Assembly: GCA_964016885.1 (NCBI GenBank)
Contig: OZ024740.1
Span: 222,890,001 to 222,954,000, forward strand
DNA length: 64,000 bases
Direction: 5' to 3'
Source of the DNA: Eledone cirrhosa
Taxonomy: Eukaryota
Shown: positions 7,231 to 64,000 of the stretch, one piece after another
Position numbering within the stretch: the stretch's first letter is position 1
Layout: each line of letters opens with the position of its first letter
The notes under the pieces: model-generated
Told to the model about the DNA's origin: nothing
Seen by the model: the letters and a program-made list of their open reading frames with translations, nothing else
Databases searched by the model: none
Made by a program: the position numbers and the translations under genes

Positions 7231-7812
7231 GTTAAGTCCCTTTACGGTCTGAGTTCAAATCACGTCGAGGTTAACTTTGCCTTTCATCATTATGGGGTCG
7301 ATAAAATAAAGTACCAGTAATGCACTGGTTATTTGCTGGCTTGTGTCAAATGTAGAAACAATTATTACTATGAATAGAACTTGTCATAACATCTTTGAAA
7401 ATGACTATTTTTCTAACATTATATATATATATATATAATTGTTTCTACTTTTGGCACAAGGCCAACAAATATCCAGTACATTACTGGTACTTTATTTTGT
7501 CGACCCGTAAGGATGAAAGGCAAAGTTAGCCTCGACGGGATTTGAACTCAGACCGTAAAGGGACTTAACGTATGCGAGGTACGAAACTCAGAATATATAA
7601 TGTTAGAAAAATAGTCATTTTGGTGGATTGGCAGTATCGTTAGAAGGTCGGACGCCATGCTTTGCAGCATGGAGTTATGGGCCTTTACAATCTGAGTTCA
7701 TATCCTGCCGAGGTTAACTTTGCCTTTCATCCTTACGGGGTCAATAAAATAAAGTAACAGTAATGCACTGGGTTAATTGCTGGCCTTGTGCAAAATGGCC
7801 AGAAACAATTGT
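7207..7812. mobile_element. Cluster of SINE family 2 pieces, including an inverted pair around (TA)n
   Basis: B-box gagttcaaatc plus body aactttgcctttcatccttacggggtcgataaaataaagtacc at 7250(+), 7490-7550(-) and 7621-7812(+). Confidence 0.75.
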
Positions 7813-8209
7813 ATATATATATATATATATATATAAAAGTTTACATTTATATATACATACACATACATATACGTGTTTTGCAACTGGTCACTTTTTGGCT
7901 CAATGAAAAATTAATAAATTAAACAATCAGAGCTATATATCATAAAACATGTCTATAGTATCACAATATAAAATATATACTAATTCCTCTCCCAATTAGC
8001 ATAATTAACTATATAAAAAATCGAATAGACCAGGCTATACGAATGAGGCTTCTATGAAGGAATCTCCAACAAATAACCAAAACTAGCGCTTCGCGTCGGC
8101 CGCATTGGAATATTTATCGAATATTTCGACAGCGTAATCGCCTAGATAGAGTCGACTAAACAGAATTAGGTTTAAAATAAACTAGGAGAAAATAGAATAC
8201 ACTTAAATA

Positions 8210-8295
8210 CCTCTACCATGGTTTCGTCCGTGTTTTGAGTTATCCAATAATTATGTAATAATTATATAAACTCGAGCGCCGGATTCTTCAGGAAG
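8210..8295 (-). ncRNA. Type I hammerhead ribozyme, intact core
   Basis: cttc-CTGAAGA-atccg..cgga-c-GAAA-ccatg-GTA-gagg. Stem I cttc/gagg, stem II tccg/cgga, palindromic stem III. Confidence 0.85.
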
Positions 8296-8864
8296 CTCGC
8301 TCATATCTAGACATTAAATTTTCCAAAACGATCGCGCCAAGAATTCATTTCAAAATGGCTAAAAATCGTGACGGAGTCGCGGTCAAGTTGGAAGGGGTGT
8401 GGTAGTTGCTTACGACTAGTGGCATTTTTGCTAGAAAGCACTGCACAATACAGCCAAATTTGTGTCTCAACCTAGTGGGAGATTATTACATATAAAAGTT
8501 TACATATATATATACACATACAAATACGCGTTTTGCAACTGGTCACTTTTTGGCTCAATGAAAAATTAATAAATTAAACAATCAGAGCTATATATCATAA
8601 AACATGTCTATAGAATCACAAGATAAAATATATACTATTTCCTCTCCCAATTAGCATAATTAACTATATAAAAAATCGAATAGACCAGGCTATACGAATG
8701 AGGCTTCTATGAAAGAATCTCCAACAGATAACCAAAACTAGCGCTTCGCGTCGGCCGCATTGGAATATTTATCGAATATTTCGACAGCGTAATCGCTTAG
8801 ATACAGTCAACTAAGCAGAATTAGGTTTAAAATAAACTAGGAGAAAATAGAATACACTTAAATA

Positions 8865-8950
8865 CCTCTACCATGGTTTCGTCCGTATTTTGAGTTATCC
8901 AATAATTATGTAATAATTATATAAACTCGAGCGCCGGATTCTTCAGGAAG
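8865..8950 (-). ncRNA. Type I hammerhead ribozyme, second tandem copy
   Basis: Same motif as 8210-8295, located 655 bp away. Confidence 0.85.
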
Positions 8951-9306
8951 CTCGCTCATATCTAGACATGAAATTTTCCAAAACGATCGCGCCAAGAATT
9001 CATTTCAAAATGGCTAAAAATCGTGACGTAGTCGCGGTCAAGTTGGAAGGGGTGTGGTAGTTGCTTACGACTGGTGGCATTTTTGCTAGAAAGCACAGCA
9101 CAATACAGCCAAATTTGTGTCTCAACCTAGTGGGAGATTATTACATATAAAAGTTTACATATATATATACATACACATACATATACGTGTTTTGCAACTG
9201 GTCACTTTTTGGCTCAATGACAAATTAATAAATTAAACAATCAGAGCTATATATCATAAAACATGTCTTGTGATTTTATCTTGTGATTCTATAGACATGT
9301 TTTATG

Positions 9307-14025: not shown

Positions 14026-14067
<42 letters not shown>

Positions 14068-14071
<4 letters not shown>

Positions 14072-14588
14072 AATTAAGTTAAAAAAAAAATTACATCTAC
14101 ATATGCATACTGAAATACTAGTGTGTATATGAATACACACACGTATACATATGTATATGTAACAAGTCTTTCACTGGTTGCTTTACTGTGAGCACCCAGC
14201 TATTCTGTATGTAAACACACAGACAAACCGGTTTTTAGAGTCATACTGGTTTTTGAGGGAACACCTTCCCTCTATTCTCCAGAAAGCCAGACAAGGAATA
14301 TTGAACTAGTTTCGTTGTTGTTACAACTCATCAGCAATATTTACCTATCTACCGGCCCCTCTGGAGAATTGTAAAAGCACATATCGTTATATGCTTTTTC
14401 TATGAAAATTAGTAGTGGGCAGACTAATTTGCATAGAGTGTGAGTACGCACCGGCTCAGCGGAGACGATAAAAACAAATGACGAAACGAAATTAAATTTC
14501 GTTTCGTTTGTAACTCACTTTTGTATGACTGACGCTTAAACAACTAAGTTAAAAAAAATTACATCAACATTTGCATACTGAAATACTA

Positions 14589-14595
<7 letters not shown>
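14068..14595 (-). mobile_element. Retrozyme-like unit (~470 bp plus ~60 bp terminal direct repeat)
   Basis: 14068-14130 is repeated at 14538-14595. (TA)n on both sides, with an internal intact HHR. Confidence 0.8.
14298..14340 (-). ncRNA. Minimal type I hammerhead ribozyme
   Basis: atattg-CTGATGA-gttg taacaa caac-GAAA-cta-GTT-caatat: 6-bp stem I, 4-bp stem II, palindromic AACTAGTT stem III. Confidence 0.9.
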
Positions 14596-14659
<64 letters not shown>

Positions 14660-15057
14660 TAAATATATATATATATTGCCTACTTTTCCACTAGTACCAC
14701 AGTGCTGTATCCATGTGATTTACTTCTCTATCTATTACTACAATATATTACTATATCTTATTTCCATTCATCATTTGTAACAACAAATACTGCAAGACAA
14801 TGTTGCTAGGAGTGCATCACACAGAAAATTTGAGATAAAAAATATACCCCCATTAAGAATAATTGTGTTCTATAGGTACTTTTAAACCTGAGCAACACAG
14901 GGAATTCTGGTAGTGTGTGTGCGTATATATATATATTTATGTATATATATATATATCCAGGAGTGCAACATGAAGTTACTGTAGGTTCACCCAGGTGAGC
15001 ATTCAATGTTTAGATTCACATCTGTATGAAGGTGTAGAGCTAAACAGTCTAAATATA

Positions 15058-31590: not shown

Positions 31591-31639
31591 TATGTATATA
31601 TATTATGTATATATATATAAATGTATATATATATTTATA

Positions 31640-31721
<82 letters not shown>

Positions 31722-31723
<2 letters not shown>

Positions 31724-33368
31724 TAAACATAAAAAAGAAGATTTACAGAGAATTAAGTCATCAAGGAAAACTTGAGCGTAACCTAACACAAGAAATAACT
31801 AAGATAACCACACCAAGAGAAAAAATAATATTTATAAACCTTATATGTCTTGAAGAAAAGTACATTGTTCAAGAATGTGCCAAGCACTTTAACAAGAATC
31901 TAAAGTGGCTCAAACAGATAAAACTAAATCAAGATACTTTAGAGAATATCGATAGATATCCCGACAAAATTAACGGTATAGATATGGCCGACATCTCATT
32001 AACAGATGAATTCAACAACAACATCACAAATATATACGGCAACACTACAGTCGACTTTGATGAATTATCGATATTACAGCTACCACCTAAATATGCCACA
32101 TATAATAAGGTAAATATGATAAAATGCTTGTCAGAAATAGAAAATTAATTTACAAAATTACGTTGGAGCCTCAAATACAAAAACAAAAGTAACAGCATAC
32201 GCACACACACACACCCATACAACACACATCCCAACAACAACATACACAAACAACGATAATAACAACACACACATCAACAATAATAACATACTCAGAAACA
32301 ACAACAACAGAGACGCAGACGCAAACAACAATAACAACACACACAACAATAATAACATACAGGTAGACAACAACAACAACACACATCAACAACAGCACAC
32401 ATCAACAACAACACACATATTCTATGTCTCTCTCCACCACCACAATCTTAACAAACACACAGACACAGAAAATAGGTAATGACAGTAAGACAGAAATAAG
32501 GGAAGGTAATAAGATTGAAAGGAGAAAGGAGACTATCGATACTGACAGAGAAAATAACTAGGACGAACACACAGACACACAGAATAGAGTAGGTAATAAC
32601 AATGAGCCAGAGGAAAGAGACAGGAGTAATAATGAGAAACATAGAAACAACCATGAGGCTATTGTTGGAAATAGAAATAGAAACAACAGAACTAACAATA
32701 ACAATAACAATAGTACACATATGGCAAGAGCTTGGAACTCTACTTTTTATAATCCTTCCGATATGTCCTTCGACCCAAGACGAGTCCACGCCACGACTTT
32801 AGCTTTTCACAAACGGACGCAATTGCCGTAGCAGGTCGAGGAACAAACAGAAGCACAATTTAGTACAGCTATATCTAAACTTAGAAATATTATAGAACAG
32901 TATAGCAAGAAGCAAAATAGAATGGATGCCCAGCAACTGGGAGAAAAATCTGCAAATGGCTTGCGTAAGCTCATGCAGCGCTCGCGTAATGGAGAGATTG
33001 CATGTTTTCCAACAGACAAGTCTGGCAGAATGTCGGTTGAGTGTCTGTCAGAACAACCAACCAGTACCATGTAAATAAACAAATAAATAAACGAATATAA
33101 ACACACACAGACACCCGGATGTAACACATGCGCAAACTAAGCACACAGCACACACACACAAATAAGATGGCGTAGGACAGAACAAAGGAGAGACACAAAA
33201 AACAAAGAAAAGAATCCCCAATCACTGAAGAGGTCACAGAATGTGTGACGAAAGAACTTTGACAATATATGAACAATCGTCTGGTTGTGGACCCAAACAA
33301 CTTACCGGAAATTTATAAATTCCTAAATTTATAATAAATTGAAGTGAAAGCAACTGGTGCGTGTGTTT
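31722..33368 (+). mobile_element. Internally deleted Penelope-like element: N-terminal ORF remnant fused to a pLTR
   Basis: Motifs LQLPPKYA..FTKLRW and GEIACFPTDKSGRM (PLE RT motif 1), with a low-complexity AAC-rich insert at 32175-32710. 33051-33368 is the reverse complement of 35545-35878. Confidence 0.75.
33221..33263 (+). ncRNA. Minimal type I hammerhead ribozyme in PLE pLTR
   Basis: tca-CTGAAGA-g-gtcaca gaatg tgtgac-GAAA-gaac-TT-tga. Confidence 0.75.
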
Positions 33369-35454: not shown

Positions 35455-36890
35455 TTTCTGAATTTGTTTAGCAAGATTCATTATCTGAAAACGTGTGTTG
35501 AAACCGATATTGTTATACTTTGGGAGGGTCATGTTGCCAATAAGAAACACACACACCAGTGCTTTCACTTCAATTTATTATAATAAATTTATAAATTTAG
35601 GAATTTATAATTTTCCGGCTGGTTGGTTGATTCCACAACCTGATGGTTGTTTATATATTGTCAAAGTTCTTTCGTCACACATTATGTGACCTCTTCAGTG
35701 ACTAGAGCTTATTTTCTTTGTTTTTTTGTGTCTCTCCTTTGTTCTGACCTACGCCATCTTGTTTTTGTGTGTGTGCTGTGTGCTTAGTTTGCGCATGTGT
35801 TACATCCGGGTGTCTGTGTGTGTTTATATTCGTTTATTTATTTGTTCATTTACATGTTACTGGTTGGTTGTTTGTTCTATGTGCGTGTGTGTTTTCATGT
35901 TGTCCTTAATTGTAAGTTGTGATGTTGCTGTTCCACTCATGTTTTCTATTTAATTGTGGTTGTAATTCATTTATGTTTATTGCCTCTGTGATTTGTCTAA
36001 ACATTGCGTCTTTTCTTTGTGTAGATTCTATTCTTATTTCTATGTTCTCTAATTTACTCTTATGTTCTATTTTATCATGTTGGTAGAGTACAGATGATTC
36101 TTTACTATCTTGAAGCTCTCGCCAGTGTTCATTTATCCGTCCCCCTATACTACGAGCTGTTTCACCTATGTACACTATATTTTTATCTCTACATTGTCCT
36201 TCAGTACATTTTATGCTATATACTACATTTCTAGTTTTACTGTTAATTTACAGATTATACATTTCTTATCTATACAGGGAGGTCTTTGAAAAGGGTATGT
36301 ATTGCTAATAAGTGTTTTTATGGAGGTACTTGGTCTTTCTACTATCTTAATATTGAGTATATGTTTATCTAGGGCCCTTCTAAATTTGTAAGCTAATTCA
36401 CCTCTAGGTGTTGTATCGATGAACATTACACTCTGGTATTTATTGCTATCATACCATGAGTTTATTCTATTAGCCTTATTCTCAGTTCTTTCTATTCTAT
36501 TCCAACATTTTCTCCTATACAAGGGGCAGGTCCATTTGTATCATTATTTACCATGTTTTCCTATTTGGTTCTGGCTCCTCTATACACTCTGATTTTATCT
36601 CTCCGATTGTAACCAGAGAACTGCATACGGTGGATGAAGTGTTGTATGTGTCTCTCTAGTTCTTTGGGGTTGCACATGCGGGACACGTTTCTCATCAGCC
36701 GCACCAAATCCGCAATCAGTATGTTGATTTTGGTACGGTCCGAAATAGCTGAGTTTCGGTGGATCAGATATTTGGAAGTCATGGGTTTGGCATAATGGGA
36801 ATGGAGGATTTATTATAATAAATTGAAGTGAAAGCAACTGGTGCGTGTGTTTCTTATTGGCAACATGATCCTCGCAAAGTATAACAATAT
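35455..36890 (-). mobile_element. 5'-truncated Penelope-like element (RT thumb, GIY-YIG, pLTR) with inverted partial pLTR
   Basis: YIGETARSIGGRINEH (GIY-YIG), a C..KKCIIC linker and RMQFSGY. 36807-36890 is an inverted copy of 35507-35590. (TA)n on both sides. Confidence 0.9.
35660..35702 (-). ncRNA. Minimal type I hammerhead ribozyme in PLE pLTR
   Basis: gtca-CTGAAGA-g-gtcaca taatg tgtgac-GAAA-gaac-TT-tgac. Confidence 0.8.
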
Positions 36891-41300: not shown

Positions 41301-41374
41301 CACGCTGATGAACCGAGGTTATTCCATTTCTGTCAACAAATTACTGGCGAAACATCTCTTTGGATTTGTACGTG
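41301..41374 (+). ncRNA. Type I hammerhead ribozyme
   Basis: cacg-CTGATGA-acc..ggc-GAAA-ca..t-GTA-cgtg. Confidence 0.8.
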
Positions 41375-41831: not shown

Positions 41832-41911
41832 ACACACGCTGATGAACCGAGGTTATTCCATTTCTGTCAACAAATTACTAGCGAAACATCTCTTTGGATC
41901 TGTACGTGTGT
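41832..41911 (+). ncRNA. Type I hammerhead ribozyme, second copy
   Basis: acacacg-CTGATGA...c-GAAA-catc..gatct-GTA-cgtgtgt, with a perfect 7-bp stem I. Confidence 0.8.
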
Positions 41912-43939: not shown

Positions 43940-46900
43940 TATATCCAAAATCTAAATCAAAATTATGTCTGTCATGCCAGAAAGGCATGCACCATATCAC
44001 CCGTAAAGTAAGCTTCAAGATTCTAATGAATAGATCCGAGCATTTTATAACAACTAGAAATTGATTAACATATAAATAAACTTATGAAACAATCACAGGG
44101 GATAATGTTTACAAGTGTGTAAGCAAACCTAGCTAGGTAGGTAACTAAATAAACTTAACTAGAACTTTTAAAAATAGATACCTTATAATATGATTAATCT
44201 TCCCTGTATATATTCCATTAAAGAAATATATTTCACCAATTAATCGAATGGTAAACGATGGAAGCCTGTAATTGGATTTTCAACAAGGAAGAAGTCCAGC
44301 GATCTGTGTTTACGCATTAAGTTCAAATCAGCAACTGACCACTAACACGTGCTGTATCTACTAAAAATACACACATCGTACCAGCTTCGTCCCAGTAGCG
44401 TGAATAGGGTTATCGACAAGTAGAAACAGCAGTCAAGTCCTTTCAACAGAGTTAGCTCTACACATACATTTAAAAACAAGATTAAAATACATGCGACAGA
44501 TAATGCAAGAGAATAGTCTAATAATCATATCAAATAGATAGTATATGCGATAGTCATATATGGAGCTAGCAAATGTGTCATTTATATATGAGTATTGTGT
44601 GGCAAGATATTACATGTAATACAAGCACTTTAAGCGGGTATGCAAGAGTATTATGGTGGTTGCAGTGCGAGGATATTTTCTGTATAGATCAATTAGTATG
44701 TGTGCAGAAAAAGAAGGTTATAGTTTTCACATCCAGAAAAAGGAAGTTATAGTTTTCACATCCATCACATATGTTACGATGTATTTGTATTGAATGTTTG
44801 TTGTAGTAAAGGAGTGTAACGTATTGAAACTCAGTATTATTTAATCCATATATATTGACTAGGTTCTTTCGGCTGCGGGGATTTACAGCGGTTTAATATC
44901 CGGATGTAGGTATGTAATTAAGGGGAGCTAATGCGTAAGGGGAGATAACTAGCTGATTCTCATAACTAAATTCATTGCTCTAACATACATTATATGGTGC
45001 CTCAATTGAGTCCCTTATATAAAAGGTTATATATTTATATTTAATTTTAAATACAGTCTACTCTCTCATAATGTATTAAAGGTTTAAATAGGAAGTTGTT
45101 TACTCATTATTATATAGTGCTATAATTGAATTTCCCACCCAGAGTGCTATATCTTTATATCAAATTAACCTTAAATACGGTCTACTCTCAAAACATATTA
45201 AAGGTTCAATTAGATTTTTGTCTACCCAACCCTTGGTAAGCTATGGAACAGCGTACAGCTGTTTGCATGATAAATTAGACACATCTCTTGAATAAACAAA
45301 TTCATCCCCCATATACAATGTTATTAATCTATCCATTTTGTTATAAATGCATATATAATTCATATATAATTCATTGTTCCATATTACATATAAGTTAGAC
45401 AAATCCCTTATGTTAATAAATTAATCCTCTATATACCCAATGTTATTAATTTATACATTAATTACAAATGCATATATAATTCATTGTTGTATCTAATATT
45501 TAAAGTTTATATAAATTGTATTATATTTCAATCACTATATAATTATAAGTAAACTAAAGTAATTATATTAAAAGGTGGTGATTATAAGGATATTTCTAGG
45601 GTATAAAGTTATAGATAGAATGATTTGTGTAGAGGAAAGGGTATATAAGAGAGTGTGGTGTAGAGGTGGGAGGCAAGACCTTGAGGTGAAGTGCTAAAAG
45701 TGGTGATGGTTCAAATCTGACATTGTTATATACTAGGTTTAAACCTTTGGAAAGAGTGTCGGTCGGAAGCGGTGTTGGCACGATGCAAACACTTACCATT
45801 TTTTATTAAGGAGGTTAAGATTCGAAAAGAGTATAGTATGGGTCTCTAGTAGACAGAGGTTACAGAATTTATTAGGTGGTTTATACGATGCAGCCCTACT
45901 TACCACTTCCCATTGAAGTGTATATGTTCTATTCCTAGTTTTCAGATAGTGTATGTAGCTAGATAGTGAAGTGGAGTTGGCTAGATTGTGTATTTTGAAA
46001 GAATCGAGGTGCGAGTTGTATCTCGTTTTGAAGCAGTTCGAAGTAGAACCTATATAGGTTTCAGAAGAGTTGTTAGTACTGACCGTGCATGAGTAAATGA
46101 TGTCCTTGATTAAGCAGTTTTTACCTAAAGGGCAGGTTCTATTAGATCTACAGTTACATTTATCTTGGATGTTATCTTGTCGGTTATTATGTTGTGTAGA
46201 AGTCTGGTTGCTAGGTATTGCATTAGGGCTATGAAGGTTGTCGTTCCTAATGTTATTGATTTCATTAGCGTTATTACTATTGTTATCAGGGTTTGCAGTT
46301 ATTATGGTGTTTTGAAAGTTTACCCCCTGCTGTGTTTTAGTTTGTTGAAAGTAAGTATTAATATTTCTTGTATTGCTACTAGCTATGTGGCATGCTATGT
46401 TAGGTGTGGTAGAGTAGGAGATGTTAATGGTATTCTTATTTATAAGACTATGGTACTTGTGGCCTGATGGGAAGTTTTTATCCAGGATTGAGAAGAAAGC
46501 CTTAAGAAGGTTGGTAGAGACGTTTAGATTGAAAGGGGGATTGAAAAATGTATTAGTTCTTCTATTTTTGTTTTTTATATCTATTGAGGTATTTCCGTTT
46601 ATAGTATTTTGGTGACTTCTCTGGTGCGAGTTACGTTTGATGCTACTCTTCGTATTAGTGTGAGTGTGGTTATTATTCTTATTACTATTTTTCCTCATGG
46701 TCATATTGTGATAAATAATGTTGTAACTATGTGTTTTTATAAGTAGGAACTCAATCCCATTATTATGGCCTGATTTAGCTAATGCCTGATTATAGTATTG
46801 TGAATTATTGCTAAATATGGTTTCGTTATAAGATAGATTAGAGATTCTATTGGATATTCCTTTAGTGATTGAGTTTAATATGGATCTAGGGTGGTTAGAC

Positions 46901-47280
46901 TTGGTATCTAAATAAATTAGTTTTTCGTTAGGTTTATGAAATTGTGTATATATTTTAGAGTCTAGGTAAATGGTAGCATCAAGGAAGTTAACATTCTTAG
47001 TGTTTTTGTCTATGGTGATACTTAAGTTATACTTTTTGAAAGTTTTATGTAATAGTTTCCTAGTTATTTCTATATTAAATTTTTTTATAGTCTATAAGGA
47101 GTAGTGCATCATCGCGGTATAAACCACCGTTGAGGTATGGTAGGTCCTTATGGATTTCATTTAGTAGATATATGCCCACCAAATCAGTGACCTGCGCCGA
47201 GTCACTAGATCCCATAGTTATGTCAAAGTTGTTATGCGTATCCTTGCGGGTCCATAACAGATCTTCAAAGGCAATAAAGT
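43940..47280 (-). mobile_element. 5'-truncated Penelope-like element (RT + C-terminal GIY-YIG + long 3' region)
   Basis: FDITMGS..GLYRDDAL, VNFLD, SNHP, FNPPF, CNCR..CPLGKNC, YIGST..FKTRYNSH and CNLCLLE. Has a frameshift near 47085 and a premature stop at 45793. The 3' end abuts (TA)n. Confidence 0.92.
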
Positions 47281-52191: not shown

Positions 52192-53508
52192 AACTCACAC
52201 ACTCATATTCAATCAAATATGCATGAAGAAATTTCATGAACAATGCAAATGTGTTTTTATGGTGACATTCTATTTGCCAATTTTTATGTTTGTGAAAGGT
52301 GGTCAATTGTCAGAATCTTTAGAGAATAAGATACATGGTTTACAGTATTTCTTCTGGCTTTTGACATATTAAATATAACTCTTACTAGATTAAATGTTAT
52401 ATTTCATCTTACTGTGGTTGATAATATGAAGTACTAATCTTGATTTAATTGACATATATATATAGGAATAGATCAACAAGATCCCAGGCCTCATTCCTTT
52501 ACCTAGTGGGCTAGAGCTCATCAAGTTGAACCAATGAAACCATGTTTCCATTGGTCTTTCCATTGCTGACAATATTTACCAGTTGCAAATGTGAAACAAA
52601 GTGTTTTGCTCAAGGCAAAATCCTGTGTGTTTTCATAGGGATGTAATATTACTTATTATTAAGTTTCTGTTAATTCTTTTCGCTATGTATTCACACACAC
52701 ACTCTCAGATACACAGCAATGTGTATGATTATGATGATGTGTGTATTTGTCTAGGTCCATAGATCCTTTAATGCCTATAAAATAAAAACACTAAACATAC
52801 ACATATATTACACTGTATATTTATGTGTGTGTGTGCGTGTGTGTATGTGTGTGTATGTGTGTGTGTGTATGTGTGTGTGGTTGATGTTAGGAAGGGCATC
52901 CAGCTGTAAAAGCCGTGGCCAAATTTACAGTCCTATTGGAGCAAGGTATAGTGTGGCCAATTCTGACCAGACTTGTCTCTCAATGTGTACAACCTGTCTC
53001 TACACATGCAAGCAAGGAAAATGGACATTAAACAATGAGGATGATGATGGTGATGATGTTATATATAGGCTATAGTGGAATATATATATATATTTATAAA
53101 GTGTTAAAATGATCAAATTTTAGTTTAGTACATTTATTAGCTGACAATTGTTTCTTCCAGAGGGAAGTCCGGATTACATCGGGGCATAAGGAATGATGAA
53201 AACGTGTAACTAGAATCCTAGTTATTTAGAACATTTAGGCTACATAGTTGTTATTAGTGTCAAAGGCATCATGTGGAGATTCAGGAGTTAAAAAGATGTT
53301 CCGCTTGAAATAACACAATTACAGGCAGCACTGGTTGGAAGTGTAATAGGTATAAGTAAAAGTAAAAAGCACAAGCAAAAGAAAGAAAAGCAAAAAAACA
53401 CAGGGAAAGAAGTTATAAGCATGGACAATAGGTGTACAATGCAGGAGTCAATACAGTCAATAATGCATGTGTGAGGAAAGAGTTATAATGCAGTTGAAAT
53501 AAACAGTA

Positions 53509-53540
<32 letters not shown>

Positions 53541-53542
<2 letters not shown>

Positions 53543-55841
53543 GGGCACAAGAATGGGCCCGAACTATGCCAACCTTTTTGTTGGCCATGTTGAGGCCCAA
53601 ATCTTTGCCCAGTACACCGGCCCCACGCCCGAACTGTACGGTCGTTACATTGACGACTGTATCGGAGCCACGACCATCACCCGAGAACAGCTCGACTCCT
53701 TTCTCTCCTTCTTCTGCTCCTTCCACCCCTCCCTCCACTTCACCACCTCTATCTCCACCAACCACGTCCACTTCTTAGACATCTCCGTCGCCTTCGAGCC
53801 CTCCCACCACTCCCTCGTCACCTCCGCCTTCTTCAAACCCACCGACTCCCACCCTTACCTCGACTTCACCTCTTCCCACCCTACCCACACTAAACTCTCC
53901 ATTCCCTACTCCCAACTTCTCAGGATCCGCCGCCTCTGTAGCCGTGATGCTGACTTCGAGTCCCAGGCCCTTTCCCTAGTCAGCCATTTCATTCGCAGAG
54001 GTTACCCCCCTCTCTCGTCTACACCGCTCTCACCCGCGCCCGTGCTATCCCCCGCTCCACCACCCTCACCCCACGCCACCGCACACCCACCCACCGTCTC
54101 CCCTTCCCCATCACCTACCACCCCTCCACCTCCCACATCTTCCCAACCCCACCACTCCCCTCCTTCAAACGCGCACGCAATCTCCGCACCCTCCTCGTCC
54201 ACAGCTCCCTACCCCCAACCCACGCGCTGTTCCCCCCCGGTTTCTTTCCCTGTTCTAGGCCCCGCTGCAACACCTGTCCCCACATCACCAACACCACCAC
54301 CTTCCAGGGTCCCAACGGCCACTCTCTCTCGGTCCGGCATGCCTTCCGCTGCACCTCCTCCAACCTAGTCTACGGACTTCGCTGCACGGAGTGCAGCCCG
54401 ACGTATGTCGGACAGACGGGACGTCGCCTGGCGGACCGAGTCACGGAGCACCTCCGGGATATTCGTCTCGGGGGCAGTTCCCCCATCGCCCGCCACTTTG
54501 GTGGCCCTGGACACTCCGCACGCCATCTCACAGTCTGTGGCCTACTCCAGTGCCACGGAACACCCGCCCATCGCCTTACGGTCGAACAACGAACTATCTT
54601 CATCTTACAGACCCACACTCCCCTCGGCCTGAACGCCCCACCCTTATTCCTTTAGCGTTCGACCGCCCCCCTCCCCCCACACTTATCCCCCACTAACACC
54701 ACTAACACACCCCTCCTTTTCACCGCCCACCCCACACTAACAATACTAACACCTCCACTCCACCCCCTCATCTGACCACCTTTCCCCAACTAACATACTA
54801 ACATCCCTTCCCTCCCCTCTTCTCCTCCTCCCCCCTCCTTATCACACGCACACACCCACCGGCACATATATACACGCGCTCACACTAAACACACACCCTA
54901 CTACCACCACTAACCCTCACCCCCACACCTCTCACCCCCACACCTCCATCCCACCACCCCGCAACTAACCTCACTAACACCCCCTAACCCCAAGCACACG
55001 AACACACGCACCCACTTACACCACCCACCCCACACGCAACTAACATAACTAACACCCCCAACCACACGCACACGTACCCACACACCCTCGTACACCACCA
55101 ACTCTACACACCCTACCACCACTACCCCCACTCACAGCTGCATTCAACCCCTCCCCCCTCCCGTATACTTACACCCACTAACACCTCTTCATCAAAATAC
55201 ACACACACCAGTACACCACACTCCCTCCATAGAACCACACACACCCTTCTCTCCCCACTCCGCCCACACCCTCGCTCCACACTCACTCATCCCACTAACA
55301 CCCCTACTAATACACACACACACACAGACACCCTCCTCACTCCAACTTTCACACCTACCCATCCTCGCCCCCTACCATTCCACTGACTGCTGCTGTGCCC
55401 TCTGGCCACCTCGCAGCACCAACAGACCACAGCACTCCCACTGCTGACCACTTCCTGTTGCACGCGCACCCCACATCTCTCCTCTTCCGACCACCACTTC
55501 ATGGATTACCCACACGCAGAATTTGACTTACAAACAATCTACTGAACATCCTTGGAACTTACCAACTTTTCAACCATCCTCTATATCGTAATCACCTATA
55601 TAACTCAACCGCACACACACCCCAAAAAAAAAATGTTTTCTCCACACGCCACCCACACCCACAACACGCTTAAACCCCACACACACGTGCTTCCCACCAC
55701 ATATTTACACCCTCAGCCTCCTGATTCCTCTCCCCCCACCCCCTATCCACACACGCACAGACACTCCGACCCACAAAAACACCCCCCACACACACCCCTT
55801 CCTGAACATGCAACCCCGTTTTTCTCCCAACCCTTACTTTG

Positions 55842-56965: not shown

Positions 56966-57015
56966 AGCTATAAAAAAAAAAAAAAGAAAACACTAGCCGC
57001 AAAACAAATCAGAAG

Positions 57016-60000
57016 ATGGCGACAAGACTACGGATGAACGAAGCGATCAGGGCATTCACCGGGGAAGGCGATGTTGTCGCTTGGCTGCGGAAGGTTCGGC
57101 TGGTCGCAGGCTTGCAGAAGATAGGAGACGTGGCCGGCCTCATGGCATTGTACCTCGAGGGCGACGCGCTGGTACTCTTCCTTGAGTTGGACGACCACAG
57201 CCAAAGAGATGTGCAGAAGATTGAGAGGCGTCTGATGGATGCATTCGCCGAGGGACCGTTGGCGGCTTTTGCTAAGCTGGCGAGAATCAGGTGGAATGGT
57301 GAGCGCGTCGACATTTTCGCCACGGAAATAAGGCGGTTGGCTATGTTGGCCGGTTACCAGGCGGAATGCGAACGCACGGTGCGGTTGGCGTTCATCAATG
57401 GATTTCCGGACGACATAGCGGTGAAACTGCAGCAAGTCCCGGGGTATAAAGAGATGGAAATGCGTTCACTGGTGGAACAAACCCGGATCATAGCGGAAGG
57501 TGCCAAAAAGCGTGTTGCGGTGATAGCGACTACGGAGGCTCAGGACACCTGGCAGCGAAATAGTCAAAGGGAGGCAACCTCGGCACGCGGCGTCCGTGCG
57601 AATTTCGGGGGCGCTGTTTTAGGTGCCAGGGCCCGCATATGTCTAGAGACTGTAGAGAGTCGAAGCCGGAGATAATTTGCTACCGGTGTAAGCGACCAGG
57701 CCACATCACTACTAACTGCGACCAGGGAAACGATCTAAGGGGAACAACTGCGCCGGTAGTTGCCCCTTACGAGTAGCGGCGCTGCCCGTCGTGGAAGTCT
57801 TCGTGAGGGGGAAGCCACAGCGAGCCCTCGTGGATACGGGCTGTACGACGACACTGGTGACCGCGGGGGTGGCGCAGAGGTGGGGAGGGTAGAGCAGCGT
57901 AAGGGCAGTCGACGGCAGGAAAATTAAATGCCGAGGTCGCAGCGAGATGGAAATAGCGGTACGGGGAAGGACGATAAGGCTTTCCGCCATCGTGGTAGAC
58001 AGTGTGGTGGATGGGATCGGCGTGGTTATGGGCATGGACGCGATTGGCCGTCTAGGGGCGTCACGGTGAACAATGTCGGTGTGTTGTTTGGCGCCGCTGC
58101 ATCGGTATGCGCTGTGAGTGCACGTCATGAGAACCAGAAGGCCCACGAGGAGGAATACCCCGCTTACACTGTACAGGACAAAGACTTCAAGGCCGTGTTT
58201 GATGGGCAGCGATGGGTTGTTGAGTGGTACTGGAAGGGAGAACCACCAACACTGAAAACCAAAGTGGGCTGCTATCAACACACATTGAAGGGAAACGCTA
58301 GGAGCGAGTTCGAGCGAGAAGTAGAGAGATGGATCGAAGGGGGCATACTGCTTCCCTGGAAGCAGGAGGTGAAGTGCGGAGTATTGCCGTTGATGGCGGT
58401 GGTGCAACCCACGAAGAGCAAGGTGAGGCCGGTGCTGGACTATCGGGAGCTGAACGAGCACGTGTCATGCCACACGGGTGGCGAGGTCACGGATGTCTGT
58501 GGGGAAACCCTGCGTGAGTGGAGACGCATGACGGGGGATTCAGCGATCGTGGATCTAAAGTCGGCTTACTTGCAGTGGCATATAGATGAGAGGCTCTGGC
58601 GGTATCAGCTGGTCAGGTATAAGGGCCGGACATATTTTTTTTTTGCCTGACCAGGCTCGGTTTCGGGCTGAGCTCCGCACCGAAGATCATGGCGGCGGTC
58701 CTCAAGACCGCTCTGGGGAGGGCCGACAAGATAAAGAGGGCTACTAACTCCTATATTGACGACATCCTAATGGACGAGTCGATGGTGTCGAAGACGGAGG
58801 TCACGAGCCATTTGCGGAGGTATGGACTGACTGCGAAGCCATCAGAAGCATTGGAGGGAGGAGCCGCGCTGGGACTTAGGCTACGGCGAGATAAGACGGG
58901 CTTTTGGTGTTCCAGAGGGGAAACGAAGTTCCGGAACTGGGCCCAAGTATGAATAGGCGGGAGCTTTTCTCGGTGTGTGGAAAGCTGGTGGGTCACTACC
59001 CGATCGCTGGGTGGCTCCGGACGGCATGCAGCTATGTCAAGAGACGAGCGGGAGGATGACTTGGAGTGACAGAGTGGGAGAGAGAACGGTGGCCATGATG
59101 CAGGAGATCGTGGGGAGGGTGAAGGCCGACGACCCAGTGAGGGGACGCTGGTACGTTCCCAAATCACGGAGCGGGTCCGTATGGTGCGATGCCAGTAGCA
59201 TAGGGCTGGGTGTCACGTTGGAGATAGGAGGTGTTGAGGTCGAGGATGCATCTGGCTTAGAAAGAAGGACGACTGCAGCCACATCAATGTGGCCGAGCTG
59301 GACGCGGTGTTGAGAGGGGTGAACCTCGCCCTGCGGTGGGGGCTGCGCACCATCGAGATACGCACCGACTCGGCTACTGTACTCGGATGGGTAGGATCAG
59401 TGCTCACCAGTGAGAAGAGAGTGCGAACGAGAGGCGCGGCGGAGATGCTGATAAAGCGCCGCATGGGAACGTTAGGAGAGCTGGCCACCGAGTTCGACCT
59501 GAAGCTGAGCGTAGTGTTCGTGCCCTCGGAGAAAAATAGGGCGGACATCTTAACTAGAGTGAAGAAAGCCTGGATGGAAGTGCCGGAGGAGGTAGAGGAT
59601 GAGATAGCTGCTGTGTGTCGGCTGACCGAGTTAGACCTGAAGGGGTTGCACGACATTCACCACATGGGGGTGGATAGGAGCCTGTTCCTAGCCAGGAGAA
59701 TCGACTCGGACGTTAGCAGACACAGTGTTCGGGGGGTGGTTAGAGGCTGCGTCCGATGTCAGTCCATTGATCCCGCCCCGGGTGTACACGAAACGGGAAG
59801 CCTCCCGGTGGATCGCGACTGGAAGCGATTAGCGGTGGGTGTGACGCACTACCGGCAGGGAACGTACCTCTCGATGGTCGACTGTGGACCAGGTCGAATG
59901 GCGATATGGAGGGAGATGAAGACTGGAACGGCCGAGGAAATCGTGCGGACGTTGAGAGAGGTGTTCTTGGAGCGGGGCCCTGTGGATGAACTGCTGATGG

Positions 60001-60539
60001 ACAACAGCGCAGCGTTCCGCTCGGAGGCACTGAGGGAGATGCTCGATGGATGGAAGGTGGACCGTTTCTTCAGAGCGGCGCACAGGCAGAGCGGGAATGG
60101 AATCGTGGAGCGACACCACCGGACGAACAAGGCAATGGCGGAGCGGGGCCATATCTCACCAATGGAGGCAGTGTTCTGGTACAATATGTCCCCTCGGGTT
60201 GGACAGGTCGAGGAATCGGTGCCACATAGAGCAGTATTCAAATACGAGTGGCGGCACCCGTGCACGCCACCACAACGGCCAGTGGGGAGAGAGAGTGCAT
60301 TCGTGCAGGTGGGCGAAGAAGTCTGGGTTAAGCCCCCAGATGCACGTTGCACATCTCAATGGGGAAGGGGAACGGTGACGGCAGTAAATTCAAAGAACAA
60401 TGTGTCCGTAGACGGGGTACAACGTCATGTCCTGGATGTAAGAAGAATCACTGTGTCGACGGACTCCGAGGAAGAGGAAACCCAGAGCTCTGCCCCAATA
60501 CTACGAAGATCGCAACGAAGTCGTAGACCACCGACCTAG
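57016..60539 (+). pseudogene. gag-pol with frameshifts and stops
   Basis: Gag with two CCHC knuckles (CFRCQGPHMSRDC, CYRCKRPGHITTNC), PR ALVDTGC, RT VDLKSAY/YIDD, RH WCDAS/AELDAV/TDS/NRAD, and IN HHCC + LMDN + NGIVER. The first catalytic D appears as G (LAVGVTHY). Confidence 0.92.

Positions 60540-61714: not shown

Positions 61715-64000
<2,286 letters not shown>

What the first reader, a model, noticed from the sequence alone, without database searches (positions are those of the whole stretch)
14068..14595. Compact 470-bp unit with a textbook minimal hammerhead
A perfect 43-nt type I HHR (6-bp stem I, GUU site) sits mid-unit, and the unit has a ~60 bp terminal redundancy. This is what reverse transcription slightly more than once around a circular RNA template would produce.
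Basis: partly seen in the sequence, partly recalled or inferred. Interest (0 to 1): 0.75.

Follow-up and report, generated by a model that had tools for sequence, protein, structure and literature searches.

The report
Penelope-pasted hammerhead retrozyme, circle traces
This is one short copy of a protein-free 470-base repeat that carries a self-cutting RNA motif and occurs thousands of times in this animal genome; its copies end at two fixed points like Penelope jumping genes, so it is likely pasted by a Penelope enzyme, and some arrays look as if one (likely circular, likely edited) RNA molecule was copied over and over.

Summary
The hammerhead and the ~57-bp end repeat are real. The unit is a non-coding tandem repeat: 5,212 exact ribozyme cores and at least 1,812 insertion ends lie in this 3-Gb genome. 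Ends are not circularly permuted. Copies have two fixed 3' ends 70 nt apart and variable 5' ends, sit mostly in (AT)n, and 90 of 126 insertions are head-to-head arms with one end of each kind: the Penelope 'tail' signature. No ORF is attached and no partner element was found. The end repeat is only where this copy was truncated; it is imperfect and is no evidence for a circle. Better evidence comes from other copies: arms cross the cleavage site up to 31 times without scars, 8 of 19 long arrays are near-identical, and one insertion carries an A-to-G cluster in all 4 units of both arms and nowhere else in the assembly. Mosaic arrays show that not every insertion came from a one-unit template. 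Verdict: a new member of the known animal non-LTR retrozymes, with unusually direct genomic traces of its mechanism. The scan noted the same pattern before on other DNA.

The parts
14068..14594 (-). Whole insertion: 1.12 units, one arm, fixed 3' end A at 14068, 5' end truncated
   Evidence: L070
14068..14537 (-). Full 470-nt monomer (position p = 14538 - window coordinate)
   Evidence: period in genomic arrays 465-471 nt
14538..14594 (-). 5'-truncated piece of a second monomer (the 'terminal redundancy'), 3 substitutions and a 2-nt indel against 14068-14124
14297..14341 (-). Type I hammerhead: 7-bp stem I, 5-bp stem II, 2-bp palindromic stem III, GUU site; predicted cut between 14304 and 14303
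   Evidence: stem II U-A/A-U swap in 20 of 45 aligned units
14274..14369 (-). Long stem that extends stem I and would hold the two cut ends together
   Evidence: z -5.48 for 14270-14370; helices 7-9
14468..14537 (-). 70-nt 'tail' between 3' end A and 3' end B; end B (14468) is internal in this copy but terminal in many others
   Evidence: 1,812 B-to-(AT)n junctions; loose end at 14468 in 11 contigs of run X1
14480..14508 (-). Hairpin inside the tail, also kept in a 70%-identical sister family
14399..14437 (-). Hairpin in which other copies carry clustered A-to-G changes (L142, L083 lineage)
14030..14067 (.). (AT)n target, 3' side of the element
14595..14676 (.). (AT)n target, 5' side of the element

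Best explanation
This is a 1.12-unit copy of a protein-free 470-nt hammerhead repeat (an animal non-LTR retrozyme) that is likely inserted into (AT)n microsatellites by the reverse transcriptase-endonuclease of a Penelope-like element acting in trans, and for a good share of insertions likely from a one-unit RNA read round repeatedly. Shown: tandem arrays, two fixed 3' ends 70 nt apart, head-to-head arms with one end of each kind, variable 5' ends, no ORF, structure kept by compensatory changes. Inferred steps: (1) arrays are transcribed and adjacent hammerheads cut out unit-length RNA, likely as a dimer ribozyme because stem III is only 2 bp; (2) the RNA closes to a circle, or stays a nicked circle held by the long stem; (3) a PLE dimer nicks both strands of (AT)n and starts cDNA at site A from one strand and site B from the other; (4) each arm runs a variable number of turns and the two 5' ends join; (5) A-to-I edits present in the template are fixed in every unit. 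This copy has one hammerhead, so it is predicted unable to release a unit RNA on its own.
For: Ends: of 126 insertions 90 are A+B, 0 A+A, 1 B+B; 26 have one fixed end and a plain 5' junction, 6 an unclassified arm, 3 run off the stretch; 21 of 28 are A+B in the sample taken in genome order by the hammerhead core. A PLE protein cuts and extends both strands of AT-rich DNA and starts at two internal sites that define the tail (PMC11167929); a tail on one of two inverted pLTRs is described in PMC3846280 and PMC8557442. A sister family shows the same two-end layout. Template is continuous over the cut: 176 of 210 arms cross it, up to 31 times; 5 of 208 arm 5' ends lie within 7 nt of it against 6.6 expected; no indel there in 208 units. 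One-unit bottleneck: 8 of 19 arrays with 5 or more units differ by at most 0.6 nt per pair, and length does not grow with internal divergence (rho -0.03, n 61). L142 differs from L090 by 6 A>G and 1 C>T, all in all 4 covering units on both arms; its 30-nt pattern has 4 matches in the assembly, all in that insertion. Changes fixed within an insertion: A>G 25, T>C 9 (distinct sites, p 0.009) against 45:53 for single-unit changes; 10 insertions have 2 or more fixed A>G, 1 has 2 or more T>C. Selection on RNA: 7 of 125 pairs change on both sides, 65 cells against 22.6 shuffled; none of 111 variable sites falls in the 11 core positions, while single-unit changes hit them as expected (10 against 9.6).
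Against: No RNA evidence was obtained: cleavage, circles and editing are inferred. No autonomous partner shares sequence with the unit among 35 PLE loci of two families and the other fetched loci. The tail is 70 nt; published tails are 30-40. Many arrays are mosaic: L031 (arm A units 1-2 match arm B units 10-11), L147 (period 6), L097 (period 3 in one arm only), L034 (4 adjacent units share a change), L052 (arms differ); these need multimer templates or DNA-level turnover. The A>G excess weakens when only changes private in the sample are counted (9:4, p 0.27; with subset-shared ones 12:10; new loci alone 7:7), and selection for G-U-tolerant changes could give part of it. Two changes first scored private were not: the L083 triple is in 7 loci and 271G has 288 matches. 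Core conservation alone is p 0.07; number of pairs with two-sided change does not beat shuffles (175 of 500). In the anole PLE the hammerhead is not needed for insertion in vitro.
Confidence: 0.65

Rival explanations
1. Same PLE-driven insertion, but the template is an uncleaved linear read-through transcript of an existing array; the hammerhead matters little for copying and no circle is used.
For: Mosaic and periodic arrays, and matching unit order between the two arms of L031. The seven L083-lineage insertions are near-identical, so a 25-unit array could have served as a linear source. Unprocessed RNA is the main substrate for the anole PLE in vitro. This copy's own repeat is imperfect.
Against: It does not explain how 6 A>G changes came to sit in every unit of both arms of L142 with no other carrier in the assembly, nor the founder of the L083 triple. 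No pair of units from different insertions shares 2 or more minor variants (0 of 64,160 pairs, against 18 of 1,906 within insertions), though the sample is only a few per cent of insertions. The hammerhead shows compensatory change.
Confidence: 0.2
2. The template is a hammerhead-cleaved linear unit whose ends are held together by stem I; the reverse transcriptase jumps across the nick, mostly back onto the same molecule. Genomic outcome like a circle, but no ligation.
For: The long stem pairs the two cut ends. In L185 one arm switches subfamily between positions 234 and 304, an interval that begins at the cut site (one case).
Against: No indels at the junction in 208 units and no excess of 5' ends there, whereas jumps usually leave scars or stops (general knowledge of non-LTR elements, recalled). 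Covalent circles are shown for other animal retrozymes (PMC7229834).
Confidence: 0.08
3. Short PLE-type insertions of 1-2 units were lengthened afterwards by unequal exchange or slippage in DNA, as satellites are.
For: Blocks of adjacent units sharing a change (L034, L045, L056) and period-3 or period-6 patterns whose changes show no A>G bias. The bioRxiv preprint 10.64898/2026.07.22.740005 favours local expansion.
Against: Arrays with no difference between the two arms are already 17-25 units long in total, and length is unrelated to internal divergence. It probably acts as a secondary process.
Confidence: 0.07

Closest known systems
Metazoan non-LTR retrozymes (Cervera and de la Pena 2020, PMC7229834: part 2 of 6, passages and Discussion read; Li, Clavereau and Pollet 2026, 10.64898/2026.07.22.740005: parts 1-3 of 5 read)
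   Same: Non-coding, AT-rich, strongly self-paired tandem units with one canonical type I hammerhead each; monomers to long multimers; PLE partner and circular template proposed there.
   Different: Unit is 470 nt (150-450 in the 2020 paper, 51-972 in the preprint). In the parts read, neither paper reports fixed double 3' ends, head-to-head arms, (AT)n targeting or edited templates. Here no pLTR homologue was found.
EN+ Penelope-like insertions with tail and inverted pLTR (Frangieh et al. 2024, PMC11167929: parts 1-2 of 4 read; Arkhipova et al. 2013, PMC3846280: passages and Discussion; Craig et al. 2021, PMC8557442: passages)
   Same: Two internal start sites, a tail on one end only, head-to-head inversion, 5' truncation, partial tandems, AT-rich or (TA)n targets, hammerhead in the repeat.
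   Different: No ORF; tail 70 nt instead of 30-40; start sites lie 236 and 306 nt past the cut; up to about 30 units per arm; hammerhead is the canonical, not the minimal, form.
Non-autonomous Chlamys PLEs such as MRC1 (PMC8557442, passage)
   Same: Non-autonomous, multicopy head-to-tail insertions made by a PLE.
   Different: Those generally match an autonomous family at the 3' end, and their clade is described as lacking canonical hammerheads; this unit has one and no matching parent was found.

Membership tests
Metazoan non-LTR retrozyme | Type I hammerhead in each unit | tested here: met
   5,212 exact cores
Metazoan non-LTR retrozyme | Short head-to-tail tandem repeats, no LTR, no ORF | tested here: met
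   arrays of 1-30 full units; no ORF of 150 aa or more over the unit
Metazoan non-LTR retrozyme | Highly self-paired RNA under structural selection | tested here: met
   z -9.05; 99.2% of cells paired, 7 pairs with two-sided change
Metazoan non-LTR retrozyme | Self-cleavage of the transcript | not testable with these tools
   core intact; bench assay needed
Metazoan non-LTR retrozyme | Expressed as circular RNA | not testable with these tools
Metazoan non-LTR retrozyme | 'Active' locus has at least two hammerheads (criterion of the 2026 preprint) | tested here: not met
   this copy has one; many other loci of the family meet it, so it bears on this copy, not the family
PLE-mobilised insertion | Two fixed 3' ends defining a tail found on one end | tested here: met
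   90 of 126 insertions A+B, 0 A+A, 1 B+B; tail longer than published
PLE-mobilised insertion | 5' truncation, partial tandem, head-to-head inversion, AT-rich target | tested here: met
PLE-mobilised insertion | Sequence shared with the pLTR of an autonomous PLE | tested here: inconclusive
   none among 35 PLE loci of two families and all other fetched loci; the genome holds more PLE families than were sampled
Autonomous PLE | RT plus GIY-YIG ORF between pLTRs | tested here: not met
   no ORF joined to the unit in 126 insertions; nearby PLE ORFs (L125, L170) are separate insertions

The most novel reading that the evidence does not exclude
Each insertion records one RNA molecule: a hammerhead-made circle, sometimes hyper-edited by ADAR, is copied by rolling-circle reverse transcription from two start sites at once by a Penelope dimer, giving up to 14 kb of cDNA from a 470-nt template and writing RNA edits into the germ line, where they found new subfamilies.
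Probability: 0.4. Interest if true: 0.75.

Novelty: new member of a known kind. Interest (0 to 1): 0.5.

Why it matters
Which enzyme spreads animal retrozymes, and whether the circle is really the template, are stated as open in PMC7229834 and the 2026 preprint. This family carries the Penelope two-start-site footprint in thousands of young copies and includes insertions whose units all share a private A-to-G cluster. That gives a direct in vitro test (circle against linear RNA, start sites A and B) and a possible route for RNA editing to become heritable. The window copy itself is an ordinary truncated member.

Tried and rejected
Circular permutation of ends: rejected. End repeat as evidence of a circle: rejected. 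Linear cleaved unit copied once: rejected, no pile-up of 5' ends at the cut. L1-style twin priming on one linear RNA: arms overlap the same positions and hold many units each. Search for the parent PLE: two families fetched, no similarity; L125's 780-aa ORF lies 800 bp away and is unrelated; Pfam did not name the window's PLE-like ORFs. The octamer-like motif at 14428-14435 as an essential promoter: doubtful, because the L083 lineage spread to 7 loci with it mutated. Expression: no RNA holder listed. The L142 cluster was not covered by contigs of runs X1-X4; uninformative. One search used a mistyped pattern and is disregarded. An energy evaluation of the active fold failed on the 2-nt loop and was not used. 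Rows dropped: L132 (same layout as L131, taken as a duplicate), L119 (match too short for the clustering; by eye a tiny B+A insertion), clusters under 120 nt (first 68) or 45 nt (later set). Not found in print in searches (listings only, except the six papers named); subscription papers and all supplements were not seen and may hold such cases.

Full report
Observation. The minus strand of 14341-14297 holds a complete type I hammerhead with a 7-bp stem I, 5-bp stem II, 2-bp palindromic stem III and GUU site. Rfam HH9 matches at E 4e-8, below its gathering score. The element strand folds far better than shuffles (z -9.05), although the bare motif does not (z -0.15). By PMC4209133 (passages) this is the canonical animal form, thought to work as a dimer, not the PLE minimal form. 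The segment 14068-14124 recurs 470 nt away with 3 substitutions and a 2-nt indel. Both flanks are (AT)n.

Family. The 3.0-Gb genome holds 5,212 exact copies of the 30-nt core, 7,334 of a 30-nt tail word and 1,812 junctions of end B with (AT)n. I fetched three samples: the 40 loci most like the window copy, the loci of the first 100 core matches in genome order, and 60 stretches picked mostly from the end-B list. Subfamilies range from 99% to about 86% identity. Seven of 125 base pairs change on both sides, one of them in hammerhead stem II (20 of 45 rows); cells with such changes exceed all 500 shuffles, the number of such pairs does not. The cleavage triplet alternates between GUU and GUC. 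None of 111 sites that vary between insertions lies in the 11 core positions (p 0.07), while single-unit changes hit the core at the expected rate.

Ends. Copies end at two fixed 3' sites, A (14068 here) and B (70 nt further, 14468 here), and start anywhere. Of 126 insertions, 90 are head-to-head with one A arm and one B arm, none A+A, one B+B; 26 have a single fixed end, 6 an unclassified arm, 3 run off the stretch (a first, stricter pass gave 82 A+B). In the sample not chosen by ends, 21 of 28 are A+B. Run X1 shows the B junction in 11 contigs; it may be the assembled sample. A sister family of about 70% identity over 120 nt, with its own hammerhead, has the same two-end layout. This matches what a purified anole PLE does: it cuts and extends both strands of AT-rich DNA and starts at two internal sites that define the tail (PMC11167929; tails also in PMC3846280 and PMC8557442). 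No ORF is joined to the unit, and no sampled PLE shares sequence with it. The window copy is an A-only arm truncated after 1.12 units, so its end repeat is a pLTR-like partial tandem of no fixed length.

Template. The template is continuous across the cut site: 176 of 210 arms cross it, up to 31 times; 5 of 208 arm 5' ends lie within 7 nt of it against 6.6 expected (27 ends at positions 1-6 are partly an effect of where the query was cut); no indel lies there in 208 units. That leaves circles, nicked circles or uncleaved multimers. For a one-unit template: 8 of 19 arrays with at least 5 units are near-identical, several across both arms, and length is unrelated to internal divergence. L142 differs from L090 by 6 A>G and 1 C>T, present in all 4 covering units of both arms, and its 30-nt pattern occurs only there in the assembly. 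At the 9.7% share of A>G among single-unit changes (45 of 463), 6 of 7 has a chance near 5e-6 (my arithmetic, one case picked after looking). L083 differs from L090 by 3 A>G in the same hairpin; that triple is in 69 units at 7 loci. The window copy differs from L032 by 2 A>G. Across insertions, fixed changes are A>G 25 to T>C 9 (p 0.009) against 45 to 53 for single-unit changes; 26 of 33 such sites are predicted paired against 64% of all A. Against: the bias is not significant for changes private in the sample (9:4; 12:10 with subset-shared; 7:7 in the new loci), and two changes I first scored private were not. Several arrays are mosaic or periodic (L031, L034, L052, L058, L065, L097, L147), which needs multimeric templates or later DNA turnover; their shared changes show no clear A>G bias. 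L185 switches subfamily between positions 234 and 304. No units from different insertions share two minor variants (0 of 64,160 pairs), but the sample is small.

Mechanism and odds. PLE-driven insertion of a non-autonomous hammerhead repeat: about 0.9 (inference from ends). One-unit RNA copied repeatedly for a good share of insertions: about 0.7, of which a covalent circle is the likeliest form because circles are shown for other retrozymes (PMC7229834). A>G clusters as ADAR edits: about 0.65 (inference; that ADAR gives clustered A>G in stems is general knowledge). No RNA data were obtained.

Comparison. It meets the sequence features of metazoan non-LTR retrozymes and the insertion features of PLEs; cleavage and circles are untested. 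The circular-template and PLE-partner ideas are already in print as hypotheses. I did not find the A+B footprint or edited templates for retrozymes in searches. Earlier notes of this scan, seen after these results were in hand, report the same pattern in other genomes and similar repeats in this one; they are unchecked and not counted as support. One of them calls this genome an octopus; I did not verify that. Verdict: new member of a known kind, interest 0.5.

Noticed in passing
L081:1570-2025, L177:5050-5800, L060:1-800; loci L201-L230: Sister retrozyme family (about 440-490 nt, 2,457 search candidates) with its own hammerhead, the same loop 2 and palindromic stem III, the same tail hairpin and two fixed 3' ends about 55-60 nt apart.
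   Followed up: partly
window 7810-9200 and about 740-1090: 655-bp tandem unit between (AT)n runs with a hammerhead-like motif on the minus strand (8222-8291, 8877-8946); likely another PLE-type non-coding repeat.
   Followed up: no
window 41305-41352 and 41839-41886: Two hammerhead-like motifs 534 bp apart in a partly duplicated stretch.
   Followed up: no
window 33225-33253 (+) and 35670-35698 (-): Another hammerhead-like motif in inverted copies near a PLE-like reading frame at 31621-32148; the same motif recurs in several fetched loci.
   Followed up: no
window 45793-47091 (-), 53475-54655 (+), 62384-63088 (+): Broken PLE-like reading frames (labels from recalled motifs; Pfam did not name them). 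The 53954 frame has 35,386 search candidates in the genome.
   Followed up: partly
L186-L200: Young PLE-like family (95-98% protein identity among listed copies, 23,296 candidates) ending in (AT)n, with what looks by eye like a variant hammerhead; a candidate partner without sequence similarity to the unit.
   Followed up: partly
all sampled arrays: Single-unit changes show G>A 91 against C>T 55 on the element strand (p 0.01; p 0.18 in the new loci alone), with a hot spot at unit positions 258-261; unexplained.
   Followed up: no
L093:3156-4556 and L147: Units with a damaged hammerhead core recur at period 2 (L093) and period 6 (L147), as an uncut site in a multimer template would give, but the periods are not exact.
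   Followed up: partly
L135/L136 (G000:C1:5738095-5752747): Largest array seen: about 30 units in one arm, 14.6 kb, with recurring variants.
   Followed up: partly
window 56974-60539 (+): LTR-retrotransposon-like frames with RNase H-like and integrase matches.
   Followed up: no
L071:7211-7764: One insertion lies in an (ATC)n/(GAT)n repeat rather than (AT)n.
   Followed up: no
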